Source: Felixounavirus NRG857CP1
DNA length: 64,000 nucleotides
Reading direction: 5' to 3' (one strand)
Sequence record: OZ035806.1
Program-made: the position numbers and the translations under genes
The notes under the pieces: generated by a model
Database searches by the model: none
The model's input: the letters and a program-made list of their open reading frames with translations, nothing else
What the model was told of the DNA's origin: nothing
Part shown: positions 5,915 to 63,585 of the stretch, piece by piece
How the letters are laid out: each line of letters opens with the position of its first letter
How positions within the stretch are numbered: position 1 is the first letter of the stretch

Positions 5915-6216
5915 TTCCTCTTGCCACCAATTTCTACGTCAATAACTTGAACATCACCAGCAACATCAAACTTATGAATGATGCTTTCCACAGTGTAAGT
6001 CCAACCATCAATGCGAACCAACTCACCTTCTCGTGGGACGATTGGGTTACGTTGAGCTACCGTTGTAGTAGAGTGAACAACATCATAACAATAGATATAG
6101 TTTACTAGGACTTCCATCGTGAAACCCTCACTCAATAACCGTAGTGTGTGATTGACCATTTTTGCCATAGCTATAAGATGTTGTTGTTTGGGAGTTTGGA
6201 CATCTGACAACAACAA
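5911..6216 (-). CDS. hypothetical protein
   Basis: 101 aa ORF, 4-nt overlap with downstream gene. Confidence 0.35.
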   Translation of the reverse strand: MLLSDVQTPKQQHLIAMAKMVNHTLRLLSEGFTMEVLVNYIYCYDVVHSTTTVAQRNPIVPREGELVRIDGWTYTVESIIHKFDVAGDVQVIDVEIGGKRK

Positions 6217-10925: not shown

Positions 10926-11726
10926 ATGAATATCGATGTAGAAAAGATGCTTGAAGAGAAAGGTGTTGATGAAGCATTCTTAATCAATGCCGTAGAAAGC
11001 ATGGCTATGATTCTTCGTGGTAATAACTACACAGAACAGTTTATGCCTGCAAGCTATAACTTGCCTGAAGACAAGTCTGATAACAGTGCTTTTGCAGAAC
11101 AGGTCAACATGATGCTTTGCGACAAAACACTTGCTTTAGCATCTATCGTTGTAGGTGTTGATGCTCTTGCAGAGTTCATTTTTTATGAGATGCAGAAAAA
11201 TGACTATATTGCCATGACCACTGAAGAAAAAGACTTGCTACTACTCGCAGGTAATGATGAACTAATTGACCTGTTAATTTCATCAACTAGTGCTGTTATG
11301 GCTGCTCTTGAGAAGCGCATGGAAGAGAAACTTTCACGATATGAAAAACTTGATTGGGGCGTAGAAGAATTAAACCCACGAATCAAAGAGATTATACAGC
11401 AAACTAAAGAGTCTTTGGAAGAAGCTGTTGAAAATGACTCTGTAGCTGATATAGAACCACTTCAGGTGAAAGTTGCGCTGATGATTCCAGCTATCTCCAC
11501 GATGATGAATATCGTTGCACTAATCCAACTTTCACAGATGATGGGTGTGAGTATTGAGTTCATTGAAGAGATGACTGGTGGCGTCAGTATGCAAGCAATC
11601 AATGATGTTTTGGTGAACATTGGTGCTTCCATCATTGAAGAGAAACTACGCATTAACTTCGGTGATGATTTTGTGAAGCAACTCTCAGCTATGGCTGAAA
11701 AAGAGTCTGCTGAGCAACTGAACTAA
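10926..11726 (+). CDS. hypothetical acidic protein
   Basis: 266 aa ORF; 1-nt spacing from upstream gene. Confidence 0.4.
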   Translation: MNIDVEKMLEEKGVDEAFLINAVESMAMILRGNNYTEQFMPASYNLPEDKSDNSAFAEQVNMMLCDKTLALASIVVGVDALAEFIFYEMQKNDYIAMTTEEKDLLLLAGNDELIDLLISSTSAVMAALEKRMEEKLSRYEKLDWGVEELNPRIKEIIQQTKESLEEAVENDSVADIEPLQVKVALMIPAISTMMNIVALIQLSQMMGVSIEFIEEMTGGVSMQAINDVLVNIGASIIEEKLRINFGDDFVKQLSAMAEKESAEQLN

Positions 11727-56371: not shown

Positions 56372-57787
56372 ATGAGCGAGTTATTTAAACATGCGCACCT
56401 TCATGCAGGTCGAACTGAAAATGGTGCTGTAAACCATACTTCATCAATGTCTGCTCTGGTAGACTTCTACAAAGCCGCTGGCTCAAGCCGTAGCAATGTA
56501 GAAATCTTACCAGACCTGTTCTACAAAGCTTTGCGTGAGGATGTTGATGTTGCAGTTCGTATTTTACTGCATATGCGAGATGTACGAGAAGGCATGGGTG
56601 AGCGTAAAGCTTTCCGAACTGTTTTACTTCAAGCGATTGAAGATAAAGTTTTAGAACCTACACAGGTTCTTCGCATTATGGATAAGATTGCAGAACTTGG
56701 TCGTTTTGATGACTTCAAAATCTTCGTAGGTACTCGTTTCGAGACAGATGCCTTCAAACATTTAGAAGCAGCATTACTAGACCCTGCAACAGCAGGTTTA
56801 GCAGCTAAGTGGTTGCCACGAGTAAAACCACGCCACAAACAGTTTGTAAAACGTTTCTGTAAATTTGCAAACTTAAGCGAGAAGGAGTATCGCACACTGT
56901 TATCTGCACTGTCTGATACGGTTGAGCAAAAAATCTCTGCTAATGAGTTTGGTAAGATTGACTACAGCAAGATTCCTTCACTCGCTGCTGCACGTTACCA
57001 AAAACTCTTTAACCGTAAAGATGGAGAACGTTACAAAGCTTACATCGAATCACTCTCAAAGGGTGAGGCTAAGATTAACGCTGGTGCTGTTTACCCATAT
57101 GATGTGATTAAATCTATCAAGCATGGTAATGCAGATGTTGCTAATGAGCAGTGGAAAGCACTACCAAACTGGATGGCAGAAGGTGAGAACATCTTATGTA
57201 TGACTGATGTCTCAAGTTCAATGTCTTTGGTGAACTTTGGTTCAATTACTGCCCTTGATATTGGTGTATCACTTGCCTTGTATGTAGCAGAACGCAATAC
57301 AGGTTGCTTTAAAGATGAGTTAATGGTCTATTCAACAAACCCTCATTTCATTGAACTGAGTGGTGATTTACGAAACCGTCATCGTCAGGTAATGCGTCAT
57401 GTTGAATATGGTTCAACTAACTTACAAGCAGCTTTTGACCGTATTCTTGAAATAGGTAAGAGAAACAACTTGACTCAGAAAGATATGCCAAGTAAGCTTA
57501 TCATCTTCTCTGATATGGAGTTCAATCAGGTTGATGGTGCAAATGGTCGTACAAACTTTGAAGCAATTCAGAGTAAGTACAAAAAAGCTGGATACGAAAT
57601 GCCACAACTAGTATTCTGGTACTTAGCAAACCGTAATGGTACTTGCGAAGTATCTGTTAAGGATAATGGTGTAGCAATGGTATCAGGGTTCTCTCCAGCC
57701 ACTTTAAAAGCTCTGCTTGGTGGTGAGAAGTTTGACCCAATCAGCGTAATGCTCAAAGCAGTAATGATTGACCGTTACATCTGGTAA
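56372..57787 (+). CDS. vWA-like (MIDAS DxSxS) domain protein
   Basis: 471 aa; ILCMTDVSSSM resembles von Willebrand A MIDAS motif. Confidence 0.45.
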   Translation: MSELFKHAHLHAGRTENGAVNHTSSMSALVDFYKAAGSSRSNVEILPDLFYKALREDVDVAVRILLHMRDVREGMGERKAFRTVLLQAIEDKVLEPTQVLRIMDKIAELGRFDDFKIFVGTRFETDAFKHLEAALLDPATAGLAAKWLPRVKPRHKQFVKRFCKFANLSEKEYRTLLSALSDTVEQKISANEFGKIDYSKIPSLAAARYQKLFNRKDGERYKAYIESLSKGEAKINAGAVYPYDVIKSIKHGNADVANEQWKALPNWMAEGENILCMTDVSSSMSLVNFGSITALDIGVSLALYVAERNTGCFKDELMVYSTNPHFIELSGDLRNRHRQVMRHVEYGSTNLQAAFDRILEIGKRNNLTQKDMPSKLIIFSDMEFNQVDGANGRTNFEAIQSKYKKAGYEMPQLVFWYLANRNGTCEVSVKDNGVAMVSGFSPATLKALLGGEKFDPISVMLKAVMIDRYIW

Positions 57788-57952
57788 AAAGTTTTAAAAA
57801 GGGTATTGACAATGTGTTTAATACCCTTTAATATGTCCTACATAGAAACGAAATGAGAGCTTTTCTAAGATACTGAAAAATATTTTAAAAAAGTTCTTGA
57901 CAACCACTAAAAAATAATGTTAAAGTGGTTACATAGAGTTTGAAAAGTTTAT

Positions 57953-58029
57953 CTCTGTTTAGCTCAGCTTGGTAGAGCGTTCCGTTTGGGGCGGTAAGGC
58001 CGGAGGTTCAAGTCCTCCAACAGAGACCA
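57953..58029 (+). tRNA. tRNA-Pro (anticodon TGG)
   Basis: manual fold: acceptor CTCTGTT/AACAGAG, D-arm GCTCAGCTTGGTAGAGC, anticodon loop TTTGGGG, T-loop GGAGGTTCAAGTCCTCC, CCA encoded. Confidence 0.7.
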
Positions 58030-58036
58030 AATTAAT

Positions 58037-58114
58037 GTTCCAGTAGACAAAACGGTAAAGTCACCACTCTTTCAAAGTGGATATTTGAGGGTTCAAATCC
58101 CTTCTGGAACGCCA
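58037..58114 (+). tRNA. tRNA-Glu (anticodon TTC)
   Basis: acceptor GTTCCAG/CTGGAAC; anticodon arm CCACT-CTTTCAA-AGTGG; T-loop GAGGGTTCAAATCCCTT. Confidence 0.7.
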
Positions 58115-58121
58115 GTTTTGA

Positions 58122-58194
58122 CAGAAGACCAATTACAGCAAACTTAATCTTATTCATCTGAAGCTAAATCGGACAAAGAAGAGATTTGGTCTGG
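58122..58194 (+). repeat. inter-tRNA spacer element A (CAGAAGACC..GGTCTGG family)
   Basis: 5' box CAGAAGACCAATTACAGCAA, 3' box TTGGTCTGG; arms AGACCAA/TTGGTCT can pair. Confidence 0.5.
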
Positions 58195-58205
58195 TCATTA
58201 AGAAT

Positions 58206-58282
58206 TGCGGGTATAGAGAAAGGGCGTCTCACATGTCTCATTAGCATGGTATCGGCAGGTTCGACTCCTGCACCCGCCTCCA
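58206..58282 (+). tRNA. tRNA-Met or Ile2 (anticodon CAT)
   Basis: T8A9, D-stem GAGA/TCTC, anticodon arm CATGT-CTCATTA-GCATG, T-loop GCAGGTTCGACTCCTGC; acceptor base 1-72 ambiguous. Confidence 0.55.
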
Positions 58283-58288
58283 ATTTTG

Positions 58289-58348
58289 CAGAAGACCGTA
58301 TGCAGCAATAAACTACTTTTTGCGGATAAAAGAAAAAACACGGTCTGG
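58289..58348 (+). repeat. inter-tRNA spacer element B (CAGAAGACC..GGTCTGG family)
   Basis: CAGAAGACCGTATGCAGCAA...ACACGGTCTGG; arm pair GACCGT/ACGGTC covaries relative to element A. Confidence 0.5.
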
Positions 58349-58359
58349 CAATGTATTAA

Positions 58360-58436
58360 GGTTAGGAAGCACATAAGGTATGTGCGGTCGCCTGTTAAGC
58401 GAATGGCACAGGGTTCGAATCCCTGACTAACCGCCA
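58360..58436 (+). tRNA. tRNA-Asn (anticodon GTT)
   Basis: acceptor GGTTAGG/ACTAACC, anticodon loop CTGTTAA, T-loop CAGGGTTCGAATCCCTG, CCA encoded. Confidence 0.7.
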
Positions 58437-58445
58437 AATTTAAAT

Positions 58446-58533
58446 GTGTCGTTATCCCGTAGATGGTAGCGGTGGGGACTGTAAATCCCTTGTCATTGAG
58501 ACTCGGTAGGTTCGACTCCTACACGGCACACCA
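58446..58533 (+). tRNA. tRNA-Tyr (anticodon GTA), long variable arm
   Basis: anticodon arm GGGGA-CTGTAAA-TCCCT; long variable arm; T-loop GTAGGTTCGACTCCTAC; CCA encoded. Confidence 0.7.
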
Positions 58534-58539
58534 AATAAA

Positions 58540-58616
58540 GGTTATGTAGTTTAACTGGATAAAATACTCCCCTGTCACGGGAGATGATGTGAGTTCAAGT
58601 CTCATCGTAACCGCCA
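58540..58616 (+). tRNA. tRNA-Asp (anticodon GTC)
   Basis: acceptor GGTTATG/CGTAACC, anticodon arm CTCCC-CTGTCAC-GGGAG, T-loop GTGAGTTCAAGTCTCAT. Confidence 0.7.
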
Positions 58617-58677
58617 ATTTTGAGAGGGCTATTTAGCTCCTCCCTTAAAGAGTTCTTACGAGTATTCTTTAAAGGAG

Positions 58678-58754
58678 CAGAAGACCAATTACAGCAAGTA
58701 CGTATGATATTTTCAAGCCAATTTAATTTTGAAAAAATTTAAAACTTGGTCTGG
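58678..58754 (+). repeat. inter-tRNA spacer element C1 (CAGAAGACC..GGTCTGG family)
   Basis: CAGAAGACCAATTACAGCAAG...AAACTTGGTCTGG. Confidence 0.5.
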
Positions 58755-58767
58755 CTCAACAAATTTA

Positions 58768-58899
58768 CAGAAGACCGTTTACAGCAAAACTTAAACAATC
58801 TATTTCTCCGGTAAAGAAAAGGCGAAGGTTCGATTCCTTCACTCGGCAGATGTCGAGTTGGTGTAATGGTAGCACTTAAGATGATAAACAACGGTCTGG
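58768..58899 (+). repeat. inter-tRNA spacer element C2, containing tRNA-like fragments
   Basis: CAGAAGACCGTTTACAGCAAAAC...AACAACGGTCTGG; internal GAAGGTTCGATTCCTTC T-arm-like and GTCGAGTTGGTGTAATGGTAGCAC D-arm-like pieces in non-canonical order. Confidence 0.45.
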
Positions 58900-58900
58900 T

Positions 58901-59044
58901 AATTATCTTTGTAGATAAGTTATTAAGCTTACCTGTGAGTATGCGACCACAAAGGGTGAAAGGGTAAATTCTAGATTTAAACCCAACAAGGCACATCGCT
59001 ACAGACCTTAAGCAAGTCTGGGTAGCTTATCTACAAAGATAATT
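58901..59044. repeat. element bounded by a perfect 19-bp inverted repeat
   Basis: left AATTATCTTTGTAGATAAG, right CTTATCTACAAAGATAATT, about 106 bp between. Confidence 0.55.
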
Positions 59045-59048
59045 TAAT

Positions 59049-59124
59049 GGAAGTGTAGCAGAATGGTGATGCGGCAGACTTTTAATCTGACAGGCGATGG
59101 GTTCGAATCCCTCCACTTCTACCA
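59049..59124 (+). tRNA. tRNA-Lys (anticodon TTT)
   Basis: acceptor GGAAGTG/CACTTCT, anticodon loop CTTTTAA, T-loop TGGGTTCGAATCCC; paralogous to tRNA at 60758. Confidence 0.6.
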
Positions 59125-59128
59125 ATAT

Positions 59129-59205
59129 GGTTCAGTCGCAGATAAGGTAATGCAGGGGTCTCATAAGCCCTATGAATGTGGGTTCGATTCCCATCTGAAC
59201 CTCCA
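59129..59205 (+). tRNA. tRNA-Met (anticodon CAT), three G-C pairs in anticodon stem
   Basis: acceptor GGTTCAG/CTGAACC, anticodon arm GGGGT-CTCATAA-GCCCT, T-loop GTGGGTTCGATTCCCAT. Confidence 0.6.
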
Positions 59206-59207
59206 AT

Positions 59208-59282
59208 TGTGGGTTAGCATAAATGGTAATGCAAACGGCTGATAACCGTTAGAAGAGGGTTCGATACCCTCACCTACAACCA
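59208..59282 (+). tRNA. tRNA-Ile (anticodon GAT)
   Basis: D-arm GCATAAATGGTAATGC, anticodon arm AACGG-CTGATAA-CCGTT, T-loop GAGGGTTCGATACCCTC. Confidence 0.7.
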
Positions 59283-59296
59283 ATTTCAATAAAGTT

Positions 59297-59326
59297 GTTG
59301 ACATTAAGATGTGACCACTTTATAGT
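59297..59326 (+). promoter_or_regulatory. strong sigma70-like promoter inside tRNA cluster
   Basis: TTGACA-17 nt-TATAGT (GTTGTTGACATTAAGATGTGACCACTTTATAGTAACT). Confidence 0.55.
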
Positions 59327-59649
59327 AACTGAAAATGATTCAGCATATGTATAATTCAAACACCAATACATGAGTGTTAGACGTAACACAATGTGGGGAA
59401 ATTTGTTGTACATGTTCTGAATAGTTTTCGTTGCGTAGCGTCTATTTTGCAAATTTAAAATAAATGCAAACGACAATGTTTTTCTGGCAGTAGCTTGATA
59501 GGCTAAACACCAGTGAGGTCTTCCAATCCCTCATCAAAGAATTTGGCGTACTCGCCCACGGTATGATTAATAAGGTGGGCAACATTCTAAAGGGTATCCC
59601 TTATGGGGCTTGGCTTAAATGCAATGAGTACCCTTTAAAATGTTAATTA

Positions 59650-59731
59650 CGGGGCGTATCTCAGCGGTCTTCTAAACCGCCGTTAACCGAGTAAGTGGAG
59701 TATGCGGGTTCGAGTCCTGCCGCCTCGACCA
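59650..59731 (+). tRNA. atypical tRNA-like gene, possibly tRNA-Arg (TCT)
   Basis: canonical acceptor CGGGGCG/CGCCTCG, T-loop GCGGGTTCGAGTCCTGC, hairpin GCGGT-CTTCTAA-ACCGC; D region does not fold canonically. Confidence 0.4.
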
Positions 59732-59746
59732 ATTTTGGATGAAATC

Positions 59747-60094
59747 ATGAAAACTTGTATTAGGTGCAAACTTAGCAAGGATGAAAGTGATTTCTACATG
59801 AAAGATGGTAGGAGAACTCATTCATACTGTAAAAAGTGTGTTAATGAGCAAACCATAGAAAGACAAAGAGCACTTAAACTTTCAGCTATTGAGTACAAAG
59901 GTGGGGTTTGTCATGATTGTGGTAAAAGGTATCATCCAGCAGTGTATGACTTCCATCATTTGAATCCTTCAGATAAAGATTTTAACATTGGTCATAGAAA
60001 AAGTCTTAAGTTCTCTCAGGAGCTAAAGGACGAACTTGACAAATGTGTTTTGCTATGTTCAAATTGCCATAGGGTAAGACATGCAAAGTATTAG
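59747..60094 (+). CDS. HNH endonuclease embedded in tRNA cluster
   Basis: CIRC..CKKC zinc finger, HH..N..H core, CSNCH; start at ATG just after tRNA (track ORF begins 59702 inside the tRNA). Confidence 0.7.
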   Translation: MKTCIRCKLSKDESDFYMKDGRRTHSYCKKCVNEQTIERQRALKLSAIEYKGGVCHDCGKRYHPAVYDFHHLNPSDKDFNIGHRKSLKFSQELKDELDKCVLLCSNCHRVRHAKY

Positions 60095-60231
60095 TTAGCA
60101 GATTGCTTAGACGACCTTATCGGGTCTCCGTGTAAGGAGGTGGTCTGTATCTCATGTTTTCCAGAACATGTAAATAATCTGAGAAGGGGCTTTACAGTGT
60201 TGAGATAATACGGTAAGCTTCGAATTATAGT

Positions 60232-60314
60232 ATGGGACGATGTTAAGACTCTAAGGCATGAGCAACGGCCTCCAAAACCGTTTCAAAGGGGTTCAACTCC
60301 TCCGTCCCATGCCA
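60232..60314 (+). tRNA. tRNA-Trp (anticodon CCA), extended D region
   Basis: acceptor ATGGGAC/GTCCCAT, anticodon arm ACGGC-CTCCAAA-ACCGT, T-loop GGGGTTCAACTCCTCC; D region about 7 nt longer than usual. Confidence 0.45.
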
Positions 60315-60327
60315 AAGTCTTATTAGG

Positions 60328-60415
60328 GGTAGGTAGCGGCTAATGGCAGCCAAACAGTCTTGAAAACTGTTGCCACTGTAGAGATACGGTGAGGGTTCGA
60401 CTCCTTTACTTACCG
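60328..60415 (+). tRNA. tRNA-Ser (anticodon TGA), long variable arm
   Basis: anticodon arm ACAGT-CTTGAAA-ACTGT; about 20-nt variable arm; T-loop GAGGGTTCGACTCCTTT. Confidence 0.7.
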
Positions 60416-60572
60416 CCTAATAAGATTTAAAGCCAAGCTTCATTCGGATGTTGCTTTGGTATACCGCGTGTATTGTTGTACGCACTGATAAAGCACCTAG
60501 TAGGTGTCACGGAGAAGAGATAATATCAAGCTCTCCAAAGGTTCTAGTCACCGGATTAAACAAGACTATGCA

Positions 60573-60596
60573 AAGACCTTTTTAGGTCTTTTTAGA
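60573..60596 (+). terminator. terminator-like hairpin in tRNA cluster
   Basis: AAAGACC-TTTTTA-GGTCTTTTT. Confidence 0.4.
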
Positions 60597-60672
60597 GGGC
60601 TTCTAAGGTTATTACAGCTTGTTGTGGAACCTTGTTGCTTAGGTTCTTAGAAGTTCTCTAAAAAGATTTAAT

Positions 60673-60750
60673 GGGAGATTGACGGTAATTGGTAAACCTA
60701 CCATCCTTAGAAGTTGGTGTTTGAGGGTTCGAATCCCTTGTCTCCTACCA
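60673..60750 (+). tRNA. tRNA-Leu (anticodon TAG), short variable arm
   Basis: acceptor GGGAGAT/GTCTCCT, anticodon arm CCATC-CTTAGAA-GTTGG, T-loop GAGGGTTCGAATCCCTT, A73. Confidence 0.5.
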
Positions 60751-60757
60751 AATTAAT

Positions 60758-60833
60758 GCAGGTGTAGCAAAATGGTTATGCGGCTGACTCTTAATCAGTA
60801 AGACGATGGGTTCAATTCCCTCCACCTGTACCA
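60758..60833 (+). tRNA. tRNA-Lys (anticodon CTT)
   Basis: acceptor GCAGGTG/CACCTGT, anticodon arm GCTGA-CTCTTAA-TCAGT, T-loop TGGGTTCAATTCCC. Confidence 0.65.
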
Positions 60834-60839
60834 AAAAAT

Positions 60840-60915
60840 GGGGTCATAGTTTATATGGTTAAAATTCGAGTTTTGCAAACTTGGGAACTGAGTTCAATTC
60901 TCAGTGACTCCACCA
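60840..60915 (+). tRNA. tRNA-Ala (anticodon TGC)
   Basis: acceptor GGGGTCA/TGACTCC with G3-U70 pair (Ala identity element); anticodon arm CGAGT-TTTGCAA-ACTTG; T-loop CTGAGTTCAATTCTCAG. Confidence 0.75.
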
Positions 60916-60921
60916 ATTAGT

Positions 60922-60996
60922 GCATCCATAGTTTAAACGGGAAAATTACAGTCTTCCAAACTGAGGTTGAGGGTTCGATTCCCTCTGGATGCTCCA
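60922..60996 (+). tRNA. tRNA-Gly (anticodon TCC)
   Basis: acceptor GCATCCA/TGGATGC, anticodon arm ACAGT-CTTCCAA-ACTGA, T-loop GAGGGTTCGATTCCCTC. Confidence 0.75.
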
Positions 60997-61003
60997 AATT
61001 AAT

Positions 61004-61079
61004 GCTCCTATCGTATAATTGGCTATTACGGTTGCCTTGTAAGCAACTTATCAGGGTTCGAATCCTTGTGGGAGCACCA
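61004..61079 (+). tRNA. tRNA-Thr (anticodon TGT)
   Basis: acceptor GCTCCTA/TGGGAGC, anticodon arm GTTGC-CTTGTAA-GCAAC, T-loop CAGGGTTCGAATCCTTG. Confidence 0.75.
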
Positions 61080-61175
61080 ATTCAGAGGTCAAGTGAAAGA
61101 CCGCTTTGAGTCAACTGAAGACCGTAACAAATTCCACGGAGTTGAGTTAGCGGCACAACTTCAGACCTCTTTCAC

Positions 61176-61250
61176 ACTCGCTTAGTTTATATGGTAAAAC
61201 ACCACCCTTACAAGATGAAGAAAAAGGTTCAAGTCCTTTAGTGAGTACCA
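61176..61250 (+). tRNA. tRNA-Val (anticodon TAC), weak anticodon stem
   Basis: acceptor ACTCGCT/AGTGAGT, D-arm GTTT..AAAC, anticodon loop CTTACAA, T-loop AAAGGTTCAAGTCCTTT. Confidence 0.5.
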
Positions 61251-61251
61251 T

Positions 61252-61329
61252 GTTCCAGTATCCCAATTGGCAGAGGATGCAAGCTCAAACCTTGTATTAG
61301 TGACGGTTCGAATCCGTCTTGGAACACCA
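61252..61329 (+). tRNA. tRNA-Leu (anticodon CAA), short variable arm
   Basis: acceptor GTTCCAG/TTGGAAC, anticodon arm GCAAG-CTCAAAC-CTTGT, T-loop GACGGTTCGAATCCGTC, A73. Confidence 0.5.
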
Positions 61330-61334
61330 ATTTT

Positions 61335-61410
61335 GCAGGATTAGTTCAAATGGATAGAGCAACAGTCTACGAAACTGTTAATAGGGGTTCGAATCCCTTA
61401 TCCTGCGCCA
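61335..61410 (+). tRNA. tRNA-Arg (anticodon ACG)
   Basis: acceptor GCAGGAT/ATCCTGC, anticodon arm ACAGT-CTACGAA-ACTGT, T-loop GGGGTTCGAATCCC. Confidence 0.75.
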
Positions 61411-61428
61411 GATAAGCAAGAGGAATTT

Positions 61429-61671
61429 ATGCAAACATTAATCGTCGTTGAACATGAAAATCCCAATAGTATTGAGTTTGTAAGGGTTCCCACTATAGAT
61501 ACCCACATTTTCTTAAAAGTCGGATGGGAATGCGACCCAATAAAAGTAGAAAGATTTATTGGTCATTGCTTTTGTGGAAGACAACTTAAAAGTGTCAATT
61601 TTGAGACAATGTTACCAGAAAGCTCAGAAACAAGTAATAATGCTTACCTCCTTACGAGGGTTAGACAATGA
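61429..61671 (+). CDS. hypothetical small protein in tRNA cluster
   Basis: 80 aa ORF with AGGAAT RBS-like sequence. Confidence 0.35.
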   Translation: MQTLIVVEHENPNSIEFVRVPTIDTHIFLKVGWECDPIKVERFIGHCFCGRQLKSVNFETMLPESSETSNNAYLLTRVRQ

Positions 61672-62225
61672 GATACTTAAAATATGCTTCATGGATTTTC
61701 TTAGCTTTGCTAGAACCACTTGCAGCAATACTAGCAGTTATCTTAGCACCTTTCGTAGTTCCATTCTACAGTGAGAAGAAAGGACATCTACCTTTTGGAT
61801 TCAGATGGATGGAGACCTATGACAACCCAATTGATGGTGATGAAGGTCACGTTAAAAGATGGGCTAATATTAGATGGATTGGTAAACTAGGTGTCTACAT
61901 GCAAAGAGTTGGATGGCTCTGGAGAAACAAAGCTTATAACTTCTCTTACCATGTGTTAGGAAGAGATGTAAAAGATGTTACTAAGTGGAAAGGTAATATC
62001 AACGTAAGTTCTAACCCTGAAGATAATCAGACTGGTTATCTCCTAATGTGGAACAGGAATGCTTGGGGATTATTCGCTTTTATCCCATCAATTAAAATCT
62101 TTGGTAAACAATTTTACTGGAGAATTTATATTGGATGGAAACTAAAAAGCGTTGTCCCAGAAGAAAGAGCATTCTCAAGGGAAAGAGTTATGTTGGCATT
62201 CTTTATTCATCCACTAAGAAAGTAA
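61668..62225 (+). CDS. hypothetical membrane-associated protein in tRNA cluster
   Basis: 185 aa; N-terminal hydrophobic helices; Trp-rich. Confidence 0.4.
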   Translation: MRYLKYASWIFLALLEPLAAILAVILAPFVVPFYSEKKGHLPFGFRWMETYDNPIDGDEGHVKRWANIRWIGKLGVYMQRVGWLWRNKAYNFSYHVLGRDVKDVTKWKGNINVSSNPEDNQTGYLLMWNRNAWGLFAFIPSIKIFGKQFYWRIYIGWKLKSVVPEERAFSRERVMLAFFIHPLRK

Positions 62226-62233
62226 AGATTTAA

Positions 62234-62309
62234 AGGGGATTAGTTTACAAGGTTAAAACCTCGGTCTTTGAAATCGAAGAAGTTGGTTCAATTCCAACAT
62301 CCCCCGCCA
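62234..62309 (+). tRNA. tRNA-Gln (anticodon TTG)
   Basis: anticodon arm TCGGT-CTTTGAA-ATCGA, D-arm GTTT..AAAC, T-loop GTTGGTTCAATTCCAAC, CCA encoded. Confidence 0.65.
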
Positions 62310-62311
62310 AT

Positions 62312-62390
62312 GCTCCATTACTCCAATTGGCAGAGAGGCCAGACTTAAAATCTGTGTTATGTATCGGTTCGAATCCGATATGGAGTACCA
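62312..62390 (+). tRNA. tRNA-Leu (anticodon TAA), short variable arm
   Basis: acceptor GCTCCAT/ATGGAGT, anticodon loop CTTAAAA, T-loop ATCGGTTCGAATCCGAT, A73. Confidence 0.55.
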
Positions 62391-62395
62391 AATTT

Positions 62396-62471
62396 AGCGG
62401 TATAGCATAACTGGCAATGCAGCAGTCTCTGAAGCTGTCTTATTAAGGTTCAAATCCTTATGCCGCTGCCA
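62396..62471 (+). tRNA. tRNA-Gln (anticodon CTG)
   Basis: acceptor AGCGGTA/TGCCGCT, D-arm GCAT..ATGC, anticodon arm GCAGT-CTCTGAA-GCTGT, T-loop TAAGGTTCAAATCCTTA. Confidence 0.6.
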
Positions 62472-62502
62472 CTTCTAAGGATTCTTACGAGAGTCCTTAA
62501 AT

Positions 62503-62578
62503 GTGGCCTTATCATAAATGGTAATGACCCATGCTGTGAACATGGTCTATACGGGTTCAAATCCCGTAGGTCACCCCA
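62503..62578 (+). tRNA. tRNA-His (anticodon GTG)
   Basis: anticodon arm CCATG-CTGTGAA-CATGG, T-loop ACGGGTTCAAATCCCGT, discriminator C73. Confidence 0.7.
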
Positions 62579-62583
62579 ATTTA

Positions 62584-62658
62584 TAGTCCAAGTAGCTTAT
62601 ATGGTTAAAGCGCGTGTCTGAAAAACATGAGAAGAGGGTTCAAATCCCACTGGACTAC
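62584..62658 (+). tRNA. tRNA-Phe (anticodon GAA)
   Basis: acceptor TAGTCCA/TGGACTA, anticodon arm CGTGT-CTGAAAA-ACATG, T-loop GAGGGTTCAAATCCCAC; junction between acceptor and D-arm ambiguous. Confidence 0.6.
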
Positions 62659-62676
62659 CAATTTCAAAGGTGCTTA

Positions 62677-63411
62677 ATGAAAGAGATGACAGAACAAGGT
62701 AAGGAGATTTTTAATCTCTTAAAAACTGGTAAAGGGTTTTCTAACCCCCTTATTACTGGTGCAGCAGTTCTCGGTGGAACCGTAGCTGCCTCTACATCAC
62801 TTGTAAGCTCTATTAGCTCTGTATCAGACCCTACAGTAAAGGATAAGCTTGTTGCTGCTGGACTTACAACAGTCCTTCTAAACAGCTTTACAACAAGCCT
62901 TACAAGCACTACAGCAACTACTAAAACTCTGACAGACTATGGTCAAAAGTCTATTGATGAGTTTTCATCACGTATGCAGGTAGCAAAGGGGTATTCCAAT
63001 GTTATGGGTGCAGCAGGAGAACAAGTTGGTTGTACACCATTCAGTGGTATCATGGGTGTTGCTACAGAGTATGGTCAAAAAGCTATTGATATGATGAACA
63101 GTACACTAGATAGTGTTAATGGTGTGTTAAGTGACTTGCAAGATGCTATTGATAAGGGTCTTGATACTGTTTCTGATTTAGCTAATCAAGCTGTTAGTAA
63201 GATTAATGAAGGTATTTCAAAGATTACAGCTTATGCAGATGAAGTTGTGCAGATGATTGAAGAAGAAGCTGCCCTTATTGCAGAGTACCTTAAAACGAAT
63301 ATCAATGGGTTCTTAGCAGGCATCTTACCAGACTGGTTTGATGATGCCTGTAAAACTGGTGTAATTGACACTATTGCAACACCAGAAATGAAGAGCGCAT
63401 TACAGAAATAA
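62677..63411 (+). CDS. hypothetical Ser/Thr/Ala-rich protein
   Basis: start at ATG after tRNA-Phe (track ORF begins at GTG 62614 inside the tRNA). Confidence 0.4.
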   Translation: MKEMTEQGKEIFNLLKTGKGFSNPLITGAAVLGGTVAASTSLVSSISSVSDPTVKDKLVAAGLTTVLLNSFTTSLTSTTATTKTLTDYGQKSIDEFSSRMQVAKGYSNVMGAAGEQVGCTPFSGIMGVATEYGQKAIDMMNSTLDSVNGVLSDLQDAIDKGLDTVSDLANQAVSKINEGISKITAYADEVVQMIEEEAALIAEYLKTNINGFLAGILPDWFDDACKTGVIDTIATPEMKSALQK

Positions 63412-63412
63412 T

Positions 63413-63505
63413 GGAAGATTAACCCTAAAAGGTAAGGGAGCAGTTTGCTAAACTGCCAGTAGCTGAGAAATCGGTGTACCAGTTCAAGTCTGGTATCTTC
63501 CTCCA
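63413..63505 (+). tRNA. tRNA-Ser (anticodon GCT), long variable arm
   Basis: acceptor GGAAGAT/ATCTTCC, anticodon arm GCAGT-TTGCTAA-ACTGC, long variable arm, T-loop ACCAGTTCAAGTCTGGT. Confidence 0.7.
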
Positions 63506-63509
63506 ATTT

Positions 63510-63585
63510 GAATCCGTGACAGAAATGGCTATGTGCCTGTCTGCAAAACAGGTTTATAAGGGTTCGAGTCCCTTCGGATTCTCCA
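63510..63585 (+). tRNA. tRNA-Cys (anticodon GCA)
   Basis: acceptor GAATCCG/CGGATTC, anticodon arm CCTGT-CTGCAAA-ACAGG, T-loop AAGGGTTCGAGTCCCTT, U73. Confidence 0.7.

What the first reader, a model, noticed from the sequence alone, without database searches (positions are those of the whole stretch)
58122..58899. Family of structured spacer elements between tRNA genes with covarying stems
At least four inter-tRNA spacers share a conserved 5' box CAGAAGACC-NN-TTACAGCAA and a 3' box NN-GGTCTGG, with 40-110 nt of variable sequence between. The paired arms covary (AGACCAA with TTGGTCT in some copies, GACCGT with ACGGTC in others), which supports a conserved stem in RNA or DNA. Candidate roles are processing signals for the polycistronic tRNA precursor, small stable RNAs, or miniature mobile insertions.
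Basis: seen in the sequence. Interest (0 to 1): 0.65.

Follow-up and report, generated by a model that had tools for sequence, protein, structure and literature searches.

The report
Phage Y-RNA-like genes beside Ro60-like gene
The four repeated elements between the tRNA genes of this Felix O1-like phage are most likely small non-coding RNAs of the Y RNA type, partners of the Ro60-like protein encoded just upstream; the same RNA signature lies next to that protein family in very diverse phages and closely resembles the unexplained Class I RNAs of Dictyostelium.

Summary
There are four copies of AGAAGACC-NN-(U/A)U(A/G)CAGCAA ... NN-GGUCUGG at 58119-58902 on the + strand, against 0.29 expected by chance. 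They sit at the same positions in Felixounavirus, Suspvirus and Mooglevirus.

The window is a Felixounavirus. The gene just upstream (56372-57787; Pfam DUF2828+DUF7788) folds like Ro60, and is 97.7% identical to Bas63 gp130, a reported anti-defence protein.

In 75 diverse viral loci that encode relatives of this protein, the motif (A/U)G(A/G)-N5-(U/A)-(A/U/C)-CAGCAA occurs 103 times on the gene strand and 8 times on the other strand. Of the 103, 75 have a perfect 7-bp partner downstream, and 58 of those lie within 500 nt of the gene.

Copy 4 carries a tRNA-like module in the permuted order of YrlA Y RNAs: T arm, 7-bp acceptor-like hairpin, D arm. Its acceptor helix covaries fully. Equivalent elements in other phages hit Rfam YrlA below threshold, and several encode N-CCA after the acceptor strand. 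Copies 1-3 are short, YrlB-like.

The family signature (terminal stem, UUACAGCAA, 3' CUG) is also that of Dictyostelium Class I RNAs.

Verdict: Y-RNA-like genes, a new variant of a known kind, inferred from sequence and genomic context only.

The parts
56372..57787 (+). Gene for the Ro60-like protein (471 aa), the proposed protein partner of the elements
   Evidence: The ORF is listed. Pfam finds DUF7788 (2e-43), DUF2828 (1e-29) and a weak VWA_2 match. The AlphaFold2 model has pLDDT 87.5. The top 11 Foldseek PDB matches are all Ro60/TROVE structures, with E 2e-8 to 2e-6 and TM 0.48-0.67. The protein is 97.7% identical to Bas63 gp130.
57806..57926 (+). Two sigma-70-like promoters (57806-57834 and 57897-57926) ahead of tRNA-Pro; likely start of the transcript that carries the tRNAs and the elements
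   Evidence: Consensus scan: 10 of 12 matches each. No + strand terminator-like site was found before 59282. These are consensus matches only.
58119..58197 (+). Element copy 1, short (YrlB-like). Outer helix 58119-58122/58194-58197, AGA 58123-58125, inner helix 58126-58132/58186-58192, motif UUACAGCAA 58133-58141.
   Evidence: It fills the 91-nt Glu-Met spacer.
58286..58351 (+). Element copy 2, short. Outer helix 58286-58289/58348-58351, inner helix 58293-58299/58340-58346, motif AUGCAGCAA 58300-58308.
   Evidence: The outer helix changes UUGC/GCAA to UUAC/GUAA between phages, a compensatory change. There is a weak Rfam Dicty_Class_I_RNA match of 18 bits at 58294-58347.
58675..58757 (+). Element copy 3, short. 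Outer helix 58675-58678/58754-58757, inner helix 58682-58688/58746-58752, motif UUACAGCAA 58689-58697.
58765..58902 (+). Element copy 4, long (YrlA-like). Outer helix 58765-58768/58899-58902, inner helix 58772-58778/58891-58897, motif UUACAGCAA 58779-58787.
58803..58819 (+). Copy 4: V hairpin (UUUCU-CCGGUAA-AGAAA). It looks like an anticodon arm, but its loop is not conserved between phages.
58824..58840 (+). Copy 4: T-arm mimic GAAGG-UUCGAUU-CCUUC
   Evidence: (tRNA model, 22 bits).
58841..58858 (+). Copy 4: acceptor-like 7-bp hairpin ACUCGGC-AGAU-GUCGAGU. The predicted RNase P site is between 58851 and 58852.
   Evidence: The helix is 100% paired in 9 sequences, with three entirely different helix sequences and 3 pairs changed on both sides. 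Mordin encodes G-CCA after the 3' strand. The cleavage itself is an inference from M. smegmatis YrlA.
58859..58875 (+). Copy 4: U8-like UG followed by the D-arm mimic GUGU-AAUGGUA-GCAC
58901..59045 (+). Long structured segment next to copy 4: a 24-bp basal stem enclosing several hairpins, one of them CAGACC-UUAAGCAA-GUCUGG, which resembles the fused boxes. A possible degenerate fifth relative; membership is uncertain.
   Evidence: Folding gives -48.3 kcal/mol, z = -5.85, with 0 of 200 shuffles as stable. The segment is absent from some Felix-like phages (hits H134-H139). No Rfam match.

Best explanation
The four elements are genes for small non-coding RNAs of the Y RNA type. They are the RNA partners of the phage's own Ro60-like protein, which is encoded 335 nt upstream of the first copy on the same strand.

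Anatomy (shown). Each RNA is closed by pairing of its two ends: a 7-bp inner helix AGACCNN/NNGGUCU, an AGA/G internal loop, and a 4-bp outer helix. Directly 3' of the 5' strand lies the conserved stretch (U/A)U(A/G)CAGCAA, which the minimum-free-energy folds leave unpaired in three of the four copies. Copies 1-3 carry only a small variable hairpin, like YrlB-type Y RNAs. Copy 4 carries a tRNA mimic in the permuted order V hairpin, T arm, 7-bp acceptor-like hairpin, D arm, which is the architecture of YrlA.

Mechanism (inferred). The closing helix plus the motif is the protein-recognition module. The RNAs are transcribed with nine tRNAs from promoters at 57806 and 57897 and are set free when RNase P and the 3' trimming enzymes cut out the flanking tRNAs. 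Copy 4 is probably nicked by RNase P at the 5' side of the acceptor-like helix (58851/58852) and given a CCA end. The resulting particle would recruit or gate a host RNA-handling enzyme or a tRNA-binding factor during infection. In the near-identical phage Bas63, the protein is needed to overcome the ppl defence system.
For: (1) Protein. The upstream ORF folds as Ro60: the top 11 PDB matches are all Ro60/TROVE structures, including a phage Ro60. Other annotators already call the family 'Ro-like RNA binding protein'.

(2) Association, tested without using base pairing to pick sites. In 75 viral loci with 39-48% identical proteins, the sequence motif occurs 103 times on the gene strand and 8 times on the other. 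75 of the 103 have a perfect 7-bp partner, against 0 of the 8. 58 of those 75 lie within 500 nt of the gene. A complement is found for 45-46% of 6-nt windows placed 3-4 nt upstream of CAGCAA, against 22-29% on the opposite strand and 24-36% at the other gene-strand offsets (31-36% at offsets 0, 1 and 5, next to the peak; 24-29% elsewhere).

(3) Breadth. The same elements flank the gene in phages of Mycobacterium, Listeria, Campylobacter and Klebsiella and Yersinia.

(4) Co-absence. Kolesnikvirus SeKF_13 has the tRNA cluster, but no homologue at that position and no elements.

(5) Copy 4 has the same module order and spacing as elements in five other lineages. Four of these elements hit Rfam YrlA at 28.7-39.6 bits, with E from 2e-5 to 0.028. 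The acceptor-like helix covaries. ARAGORN calls a cloverleaf tRNA once the sequence is de-permuted by hand. N-CCA follows the acceptor 3' strand in 4 of 8 lineages.

(6) RNA level and strand. All helix substitutions in 15 genomes are compensatory or give G.U on the + strand.

(7) Literature. YrlA is encoded within 4 kb of Ro60 on the same strand. M. smegmatis YrlA is cut by RNase P and receives CCA. D. radiodurans Yrn2 is co-transcribed with a tRNA (PMC4201824). Bas63 gp130 was noted as Ro60-like, with unidentified Y RNAs suspected among the tRNA genes (10.1101/2024.10.10.617714). A Listeria phage of the same family has highly abundant unannotated RNAs upstream of its Rsr-like gene (PMC12282133).
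Against: No expression, processing or binding data exist for this phage; everything here rests on sequence and genomic context. The window's copy 4 gives no Rfam YrlA match even at E <= 10 in a 156-nt search. The published bacterial Ro-binding motif GNCGAAN0-1G is absent, and only a loose resemblance (C-AGAAG) is present. The protein is not a Pfam TROVE member by sequence and has no sequence match to any PDB chain; its likeness to Ro60 is at the level of fold. 31 of the 75 diverse loci showed no element within 1.5 kb under my strict pattern. Single-sequence fold stability is ordinary.
Confidence: 0.75

Rival explanations
1. The elements are processing signals for the polycistronic tRNA precursor: structured spacers that direct RNase P, RNase E or RNase III cleavage and have no life of their own.
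For: They sit in tRNA spacers inside what looks like one transcription unit. The outer helix lies close to the neighbouring tRNA ends.
Against: Most spacers in the same cluster are 2-9 nt and need no such element. The signature tracks the Ro60-like gene, not tRNAs: it lies beside that gene in loci where Rfam finds no tRNA. It is missing from the Kolesnikvirus tRNA cluster, which lacks the gene at that position.
Confidence: 0.07
2. The elements are cis-acting sites or decoys for some other factor, for example autoregulatory binding sites on the Ro60-like gene's own transcript, rather than independent RNAs.
For: In diverse phages the elements lie immediately upstream or downstream of the gene on the same strand. 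In Vibrio phage phi-pp2, a bare UUUACAGCAA sits in the gene's leader, about 18 nt before the start codon.
Against: In this window two promoter-like sites separate the gene from the elements. The copy number varies from 1 to 4, and the elements occur on either side of the gene. A tRNA-like module with an encoded CCA is hard to explain for a cis site.
Confidence: 0.08
3. Copy 4 is a circularly permuted gene for a working tRNA-Thr(GGU). It would be matured by joining the two ends through the box helix, as in the red alga Cyanidioschyzon merolae, and the other copies would be relics.
For: The 3' half precedes the 5' half. The de-permuted sequence is called tRNA-Thr(GGU) by ARAGORN in three phages. 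The acceptor helix covaries.
Against: The would-be anticodon loop is not conserved: CCGGUAA, the 6-nt CGGUAA, CUGGUAA, CUAUAAAA and AGGGUAU. The box helix is 14 and 24 nt away from the junction that would have to be joined, and it is not a bulge-helix-bulge motif (inspection). From general knowledge, no bacterial enzyme set for that pathway is known. Equivalent modules in other phages have no anticodon-like arm there.
Confidence: 0.03
4. The elements are miniature mobile elements (MITE-like) with terminal inverted repeats that have spread within the tRNA cluster.
For: There are four copies with inverted-repeat ends and variable interiors.
Against: The positions are fixed and syntenic across three genera. 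There are no copies elsewhere in the window. G.U-tolerant, strand-specific substitutions indicate selection on an RNA.
Confidence: 0.02
5. The elements are small self-cleaving ribozymes of a new class.
For: About 20 conserved nucleotides surround a helix with an asymmetric internal loop, and one stem tolerates large insertions.
Against: There is no match to any ribozyme family in Rfam at E <= 10. Nothing suggests a cleavage site. The gene association points to a protein partner.
Confidence: 0.02

Closest known systems
Bacterial YrlA / YrlB Y RNAs (Rfam RF02553; Chen et al. 2014, PMC4201824)
   Same: Both are encoded near a Ro60-type gene, on the same strand, in several copies. Both are closed by a 5'/3' stem with a conserved motif on the 5' side. 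One member carries a tRNA mimic in the order V, T, acceptor-like stem-loop, D, and the other members are short hairpins. M. smegmatis YrlA likewise has a 7-bp acceptor stem and is cut by RNase P and given CCA.
   Different: The conserved motif is (U/A)U(A/G)CAGCAA, not GNCGAAN0-1G. The protein partner is a DUF2828/DUF7788 protein, not a Pfam TROVE protein. The window's copy 4 does not score against the Rfam model; relatives reach only 29-40 bits against a gathering score of 69. The genes are embedded in a tRNA operon.
Dictyostelid Class I RNAs (Rfam RF01414; Kjellin et al. 2021, PMC7919456)
   Same: Both have a short terminal stem conserved in structure but not in sequence, the motif (CC)UUACAGCAA directly after the 5' strand, a 5' G paired to the C of a 3' CUG(U), a variable remainder, and a length of about 55-70 nt. 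The Rfam model hits phage family members exactly at the elements (30.7 and 28.9 bits). A model built only from D. discoideum RNAs recovers 10 independently defined phage elements.
   Different: Class I RNAs are eukaryotic, have their own DUSE promoter, and are reported as unique to Dictyostelia. Their only proven direct binder is an RRM protein, Rnp1A. All scores are below the Rfam gathering score of 41.5; the window's own copies reach only 18 and 12.8 bits with the Rfam model and 11.8 and 8.2 bits with my D. discoideum-only model. Common descent versus convergence on one binding site is unresolved.
Thermus phage phiLo Ro60 with Yrl1/Yrl2 (PMC12135203)
   Same: A phage-encoded Ro60 homologue has Y-RNA-like genes next to it. 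The protein is among the best structural matches of the window protein (9kop, 9l5y). Binding to the RNAs and to host PNPase was shown in vitro.
   Different: Those RNAs were picked by a CGAA motif in a large internal bulge. There is no tRNA operon context and no UUACAGCAA motif is reported.
Permuted (two-piece) tmRNA and permuted tRNA genes
   Same: The T arm and acceptor 3' strand are encoded upstream of the acceptor 5' strand. Maturation by cutting the linker would give a two-piece RNA held together by helices.
   Different: There is no tag reading frame and no bulge-helix-bulge motif, and no match to the tmRNA models at this site.

Membership tests
Y RNA, YrlA/YrlB type | Encoded within about 4 kb of a Ro60 orthologue, on the same strand | tested here: met
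   The elements lie 335-980 nt downstream of the Ro60-like ORF, on the same strand. The association holds in 44 of 75 diverse loci.
Y RNA, YrlA/YrlB type | The partner protein is a Ro60 (TROVE ring plus vWA domain) | tested here: inconclusive
   At fold level the answer is yes: the top 11 PDB matches are Ro60/TROVE structures. At sequence level the answer is no: Pfam gives DUF2828/DUF7788, not TROVE, and there is no PDB sequence match.
Y RNA, YrlA/YrlB type | Stem formed by the 5' and 3' ends, with a conserved Ro-binding motif GNCGAAN0-1G on the 5' side | tested here: not met
   The stem is present and covaries. The motif is absent; UUACAGCAA, and C-AGAAG in this phage group, take its place.
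Y RNA, YrlA/YrlB type | tRNA-like module in the order V, T arm, acceptor-like stem-loop, D arm (YrlA) | tested here: met
   Copy 4 parses exactly in this order. The acceptor helix covaries. The de-permuted sequence is called a tRNA. Copies 1-3 lack the module, as YrlB does.
Y RNA, YrlA/YrlB type | Reaches the Rfam RF02553 gathering score (69 bits) | tested here: not met
   There is no hit for the window at E <= 10. Homologous elements in other phages score 28.7-39.6 bits, E 2e-5 to 0.028.
Y RNA, YrlA/YrlB type | Bound and stabilised by the Ro60 protein in vivo | not testable with these tools
   This needs immunoprecipitation or CLIP.
Dictyostelid Class I RNA (RF01414) | Short stem joining the 5' and 3' ends, conserved in structure but not in sequence | tested here: met
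   There are 74 different stem sequences in the phage family.
Dictyostelid Class I RNA (RF01414) | 11-nt motif CCUUACAGCAA adjacent to the 5' strand of the stem | tested here: met
   The window has UUACAGCAA in three copies and AUGCAGCAA in one. Several phage relatives have the full CCUUACAGCAA.
Dictyostelid Class I RNA (RF01414) | Invariant 5' G paired with the C of a 3'-terminal CUGU | tested here: met
   In alignment A3, G8 and C36 are invariant and are followed by an invariant G38. The window has AG...CUG. The real RNA ends are unknown.
Dictyostelid Class I RNA (RF01414) | Reaches the Rfam gathering score (41.5 bits) | tested here: not met
   The window scores 18 and 12.8 bits. The best phage relatives score 30.7 and 28.9 bits.
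Dictyostelid Class I RNA (RF01414) | DUSE promoter about 60 nt upstream; dictyostelid host | tested here: not met
   This is a phage genome. The elements are inside a tRNA operon with sigma-70-like promoters.
Permuted tRNA gene (Cyanidioschyzon type) | Bulge-helix-bulge motif formed by leader and trailer at the junction to be ligated | tested here: not met
   The closing helix is 7 bp with an AGA/G loop and lies 14 and 24 nt from the would-be junction.
Permuted tRNA gene (Cyanidioschyzon type) | Conserved, canonical anticodon loop | tested here: not met
   Five different loops occur among close relatives, with lengths of 6-8 nt.
Miniature inverted-repeat mobile element | Variable presence at unrelated sites, with target-site duplications | tested here: not met
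   The same four sites are used in three genera, and there are no copies elsewhere in the 64 kb. I did not look for target-site duplications.

The most novel reading that the evidence does not exclude
The phage elements and the Class I RNAs of Dictyostelium are one ancient RNA family: the dedicated RNA partner of DUF2828-type Ro60-like proteins, defined by a terminal stem, (CC)UUACAGCAA and a 3' CUG. If so, Class I RNAs are the dictyostelid counterpart of Y RNAs. They have been abundant but functionally unexplained since 2004 and are reported as unique to Dictyostelia. This reading predicts that they bind a DUF2828 protein, possibly DDB_G0281243, the protein of unknown function pulled down with DdR-21. 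In phages, the same particle would act against host defence.
Probability: 0.4. Interest if true: 0.9.

Novelty: new variant of a known kind. Interest (0 to 1): 0.78.

Why it matters
Ro60-like (DUF2828) genes occur in at least 709 deposited phage genomes from hosts as far apart as Escherichia, Mycobacterium, Listeria and Campylobacter. One of them, Bas63 gp130, has been shown to counter a bacterial defence system.

Two recent papers guessed that such phages must carry Y RNAs but could not point to them. This analysis supplies exact candidate genes, a searchable signature, and a predicted recognition motif and processing site, so the particle can now be reconstituted and mutated.

The family is not in Rfam. 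The elements are currently unannotated, or covered by spurious ORFs on the opposite strand.

The unexpected match to Dictyostelium Class I RNAs offers a concrete, testable lead on the function of those RNAs.

Tried and rejected
(1) A scan of viral contigs with AGAAGACCNNNNNCAGCAA was too loose. It gave 120 mostly single chance matches, and only three contigs were Felix-like.

(2) Model R1 was built from elements whose interiors I had cut out. It could not bridge the real 30-230 nt interiors and mis-paired the true copies, so it was dropped.

(3) By inspection I considered a kink-turn, a bulge-helix-bulge motif, loop A of the hairpin ribozyme, hammerhead, pistol, hatchet and twister ribozymes, and group II intron domain V (copy 2 reads AGACCGUAUGCAG...ACGGUCU). 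None fits the pairing pattern, and Rfam gave nothing at E <= 10.

(4) In copy 4, a helix UUAAG/CUUAA that would make an anticodon stem across the boxes is not conserved in SUSP2 or Mordin and was rejected.

(5) I first read the V hairpin as an anticodon arm with anticodon GGU. This was rejected because the loop varies.

(6) I could not establish whether Dictyostelium has a DUF2828 protein, or what DDB_G0281243 is. The afdb50 library was unavailable, Avesson et al. 2011 is not held, and the supplements of PMC7919456 contain neither the identifier nor the family's motifs.

(7) Vibrio phage phi-pp2 showed no complete element near its gene under my patterns.
Full report
**What the window is.** The region is 100% identical to Felixounavirus NRG857CP1 and 95-98% identical to about 200 Felix O1-like phages. 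ARAGORN finds 25 tRNA genes on the + strand from 57953 to 63585. The finding lies among the first nine.

**Checking the observation.** The 5' box matches four times in 64 kb, all on the + strand (58123, 58290, 58679, 58769), against 0.29 expected; 0 of 100 shuffles reach four. Each copy has the complementary 3' box.

- The four elements occupy three spacers: Glu-Met (91 nt), Met-Asn (77 nt) and Asp-Lys (432 nt, two copies). The other spacers of this block are only 2-9 nt.
Outside the 7-bp helix AGACCNN/NNGGUCU there is an AGA/G internal loop and then a 4-bp outer helix whose sequence differs in every copy: UGAC/GUCA, UUGC/GCAA, GAGC/GCUC, UUAC/GUAA.
- Thermodynamic z-scores are ordinary, -1.3 to -1.6. 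The case rests on comparison.

**Conservation and strand.** The same four elements sit at the same positions in Felix O1, SUSP2 (Suspvirus), and Mordin, Mijalis, KPS64 and ESh22 (Mooglevirus), as well as in Bas63. Across 15 genomes every substitution in either helix is of one of two kinds:

- compensatory, as in copy 2, where UUGC/GCAA alternates with UUAC/GUAA;
- a change that produces a G.U pair on the + strand (five separate variants).

None breaks a pair. G.U pairs would be A.C mismatches on the other strand, so selection acts on a + strand RNA.

**Copy 4 contains a permuted tRNA mimic.** Its interior reads: V hairpin, T arm (GAAGG-UUCGAUU-CCUUC), a 7-bp hairpin, UG, and a D arm (GUGU-AAUGGUA-GCAC).

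- The 7-bp hairpin has three unrelated sequences in three lineages: ACUCGGC/GUCGAGU, ACACGUU/GGCGUGU and ACCCUUC/GAAGGGU. It is always paired, with three pairs changed on both sides. On the nine-sequence alignment, 97.6% of cells pair, against 41-51% when partners are slid, and 0 of 500 shuffles reach the observed covariation.
- In Mordin and Mijalis the 3' strand of this hairpin is followed by G-CCA.
- If the 5' half is moved in front by hand, ARAGORN calls a cloverleaf tRNA.
- The would-be anticodon loop differs among close relatives and has 6-8 nt. It is therefore a structural arm, not a decoding one.

**The neighbouring gene.** The ORF at 56372-57787 ends 335 nt before copy 1.

- Pfam gives DUF7788 and DUF2828, with a weak vWA match. 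Sequence search of the PDB finds nothing.
- An AlphaFold2 model built from 40 homologues has pLDDT 87.5. Its 11 best PDB matches are all Ro60/TROVE structures from Xenopus, human, Deinococcus and Thermus phage phiLo, with E from 2e-8 to 2e-6 and TM-scores from 0.48 to 0.67. Isolated vWA domains follow, with E of 1.6e-3 and above.
- The protein is 97.7% identical to Bas63 gp130. The PhageMaP preprint reports that gp130 is Ro60-like and counters the ppl defence system. [quoted passage not shown]

**Fit to Y RNAs.** Chen et al. (PMC4201824) describe bacterial YrlA as encoded within 4 kb of Ro60 on the same strand. It is closed by a terminal stem and contains V, T, acceptor-like and D stem-loops in exactly that order. 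Shorter YrlB RNAs accompany it. M. smegmatis YrlA has a 7-bp acceptor stem, is cut by RNase P and receives CCA. D. radiodurans Yrn2 is co-transcribed with a tRNA. Copy 4 has this architecture, and copies 1-3 look like the short type.

**Does the association hold elsewhere?** The protein family occurs in 709 phage records, including Mycobacterium phages, where it is annotated 'Ro-like RNA binding protein'. I fetched 75 viral loci whose proteins are 39-48% identical to the window's. I then ran two tests that do not use pairing to choose sites.

- A 6-nt window placed 3-4 nt upstream of any CAGCAA on the gene strand has a downstream complement in 45-46% of 399 cases. The rate is 22-29% on the other strand. 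At other offsets on the gene strand it is 24-36%: 31-36% at offsets 0, 1 and 5, next to the peak, and 24-29% elsewhere.
- The sequence motif (A/U)G(A/G)-N5-(U/A)-(A/U/C)-CAGCAA occurs 103 times on the gene strand and 8 times on the other. 75 of the 103 have a perfect 7-bp partner within 270 nt, against 0 of the 8. 58 of those 75 lie within 500 nt of the gene, and 44 of the 75 loci have at least one element within 1.5 kb.

The same elements flank the gene in several further phages:

- Mycobacterium phage MiniMac: three in tandem;
- Listeria phage VAfA18: three in tandem;
- Campylobacter phage CPX: two;
- Klebsiella phage FBKp34: three.

In Yersinia phage P778 they lie in tRNA spacers. In the Kolesnikvirus SeKF_13, the tRNA cluster has no Ro60-like gene in front of it and no elements. 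The family consensus is: A-G-R-N4 (5' strand), N-U-W-CAGCAA, a variable interior, N4-Y-C-U (3' strand), G.

**Link to the curated YrlA model.**

- Long elements in L177, L199 (two), MiniMac and FBKp34 parse into the same module order and spacing as copy 4.
- Four of them hit Rfam YrlA (RF02553) at 39.6, 38.9, 37.7 and 28.7 bits, with E from 2e-5 to 0.028. Three of these alignments span the full model. All are below the gathering score of 69.
- The window's copy 4 gives no YrlA hit.
- N-CCA follows the acceptor 3' strand in 4 of 8 lineages. By my own binomial estimate, at 1/64 per lineage this has a chance of about 4e-6. It argues that the loop is cut and a tRNA-like 3' end is made.
- Rfam at gathering thresholds finds only tRNA and tmRNA in ten diverse loci, so the family as such is not catalogued.

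**Unexpected resemblance to Dictyostelium Class I RNAs.**

- Rfam hits. The only other Rfam family to touch the elements is Dicty_Class_I_RNA (RF01414). Copy 2 scores 18 bits and copy 4 scores 12.8 bits. Short elements in L162 and L139 score 30.7 and 28.9 bits, with full-length alignments that coincide with my coordinates. The gathering score is 41.5.
- Shared features. Kjellin et al. (PMC7919456) define Class I RNAs by a short terminal stem conserved in structure only, the 11-nt motif CCUUACAGCAA next to the 5' strand, and an invariant 5' G paired to the C of a 3' CUGU. They report the class as unique to Dictyostelia. The D. discoideum sequences, for example GUUGAC-CUUACAGCAA...GUCAAC-UG, share all three features with the phage family.
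- Reciprocal test. A model built only from 27 D. discoideum RNAs and run on about 1 Mb of phage loci gave 14 hits at E <= 1. Eleven are on the gene strand, and ten fall on elements I had defined independently. The window's own copies are weak in that search, at 11.8 and 8.2 bits.
- Open point. [quoted passage not shown] I could not determine whether that protein, or any dictyostelid protein, belongs to DUF2828.

**How it most likely works.**

- Shown: the anatomy, the + strand RNA-level constraint, the Ro60-like fold of the neighbouring protein, and the family-wide linkage of RNA and gene.
- Inferred, binding: the closing helix with UUACAGCAA is the protein-binding module.
- Inferred, release: two sigma-70-like promoters (57806-57834 and 57897-57926) precede tRNA-Pro, and no + strand terminator-like site appears before 59282. 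The RNAs would therefore be made with the tRNAs and released when these are excised.
- Inferred, copy 4: it would be nicked by RNase P at 58851/58852 and matured to a CCA end.
- Inferred, function: by analogy with Ro60-Y RNA-PNPase complexes, the particle would engage a host RNA enzyme or tRNA-binding factor. This fits the anti-defence phenotype of gp130.
- Indirect support for expression: a Listeria phage of the same family has very abundant unannotated transcripts upstream of its Rsr-like gene, and that protein is found in virions.

**Verdict.** The best-supported reading is Y-RNA-like genes (confidence 0.75). This is a new variant of a known kind, with a distinct conserved motif and a DUF2828-type partner. 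No binding or expression evidence exists for this phage. The link to Class I RNAs rests on sub-threshold model scores and shared defining features, and is offered as a hypothesis.

Noticed in passing
window 58901-59045 (+): A very stable structured segment (-48.3 kcal/mol, z = -5.85) with a 24-bp basal stem, next to copy 4. It contains the hairpin CAGACC-UUAAGCAA-GUCUGG, which looks like the two boxes fused. It is missing from some Felix-like phages (hits H134-H139 stop at query position 298). No Rfam match.
   Followed up: partly
window 59650-59733 and 60234-60308 (+): Two tRNA-like sequences that ARAGORN did not call. The first scores 31.7 bits with the Rfam tRNA model and is annotated tRNA-Arg(TCT) in relatives. 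The second has a CCA (Trp) anticodon-like loop and an odd D region, and only a weak tRNA-Sec model match (23 bits).
   Followed up: no
window 59749-60095 (+): A small ORF inside the tRNA cluster with Cys-rich and HNH-like motifs (CxxC ... HH ... CxxCH), probably a homing endonuclease. This reading comes from the sequence only.
   Followed up: no
window 59225-59498 (+): A weak Rfam match to permuted tmRNA (24.6 bits against a gathering score of 47; E 0.05), downstream of tRNA-Ile and overlapping a strong promoter-like site at 59298-59326.
   Followed up: no
window 11381-11420 (+): A mini-hairpin AAGAGAUU-AUACAGCAAACUAAA-AGUCUUUG that carries the family motif, inside a 266-aa ORF (10926-11726). 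It was the best hit of the discarded model R1 (22.8 bits, E 0.015). It may be chance.
   Followed up: partly
L211 927-1478 (Listeria phage vB_Liva_VAfA18): A ROOL RNA match (89.8 bits against a gathering score of 99.1; E 9e-17) between tRNA-Pro and the Ro60-like gene, and a gene annotated as 'tRNA splicing ligase' (RtcB-like) 1.2 kb downstream. This echoes the bacterial rsr-yrlBA-rtcBA arrangement.
   Followed up: no
L147 8605-9054: A full-length tmRNA gene (75.4 bits) and a tRNA cluster about 3 kb downstream of the Ro60-like gene in an uncultivated phage contig.
   Followed up: no
L125 about 5978-5987 (Vibrio phage phi-pp2): UUUACAGCAA lies in the leader of the Ro60-like gene, ending about 18 nt before the start codon, with no evident closing helix. 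This might be an autoregulatory site.
   Followed up: no
L214 2949-3223 (Bas63) and L121 5646-5876 (Felix O1): Deposited annotations place small hypothetical ORFs on the opposite strand (bas63_0137, bas63_0138, Felix O1 ORF94) over copy 4 and the long hairpin. These are probably spurious calls over non-coding RNA genes.
   Followed up: partly
L165 5734-5833: One family member encloses what looks like an ordinary, non-permuted tRNA-like sequence (D arm, anticodon-like arm, T arm) inside the closing helix, instead of the permuted module.
   Followed up: no
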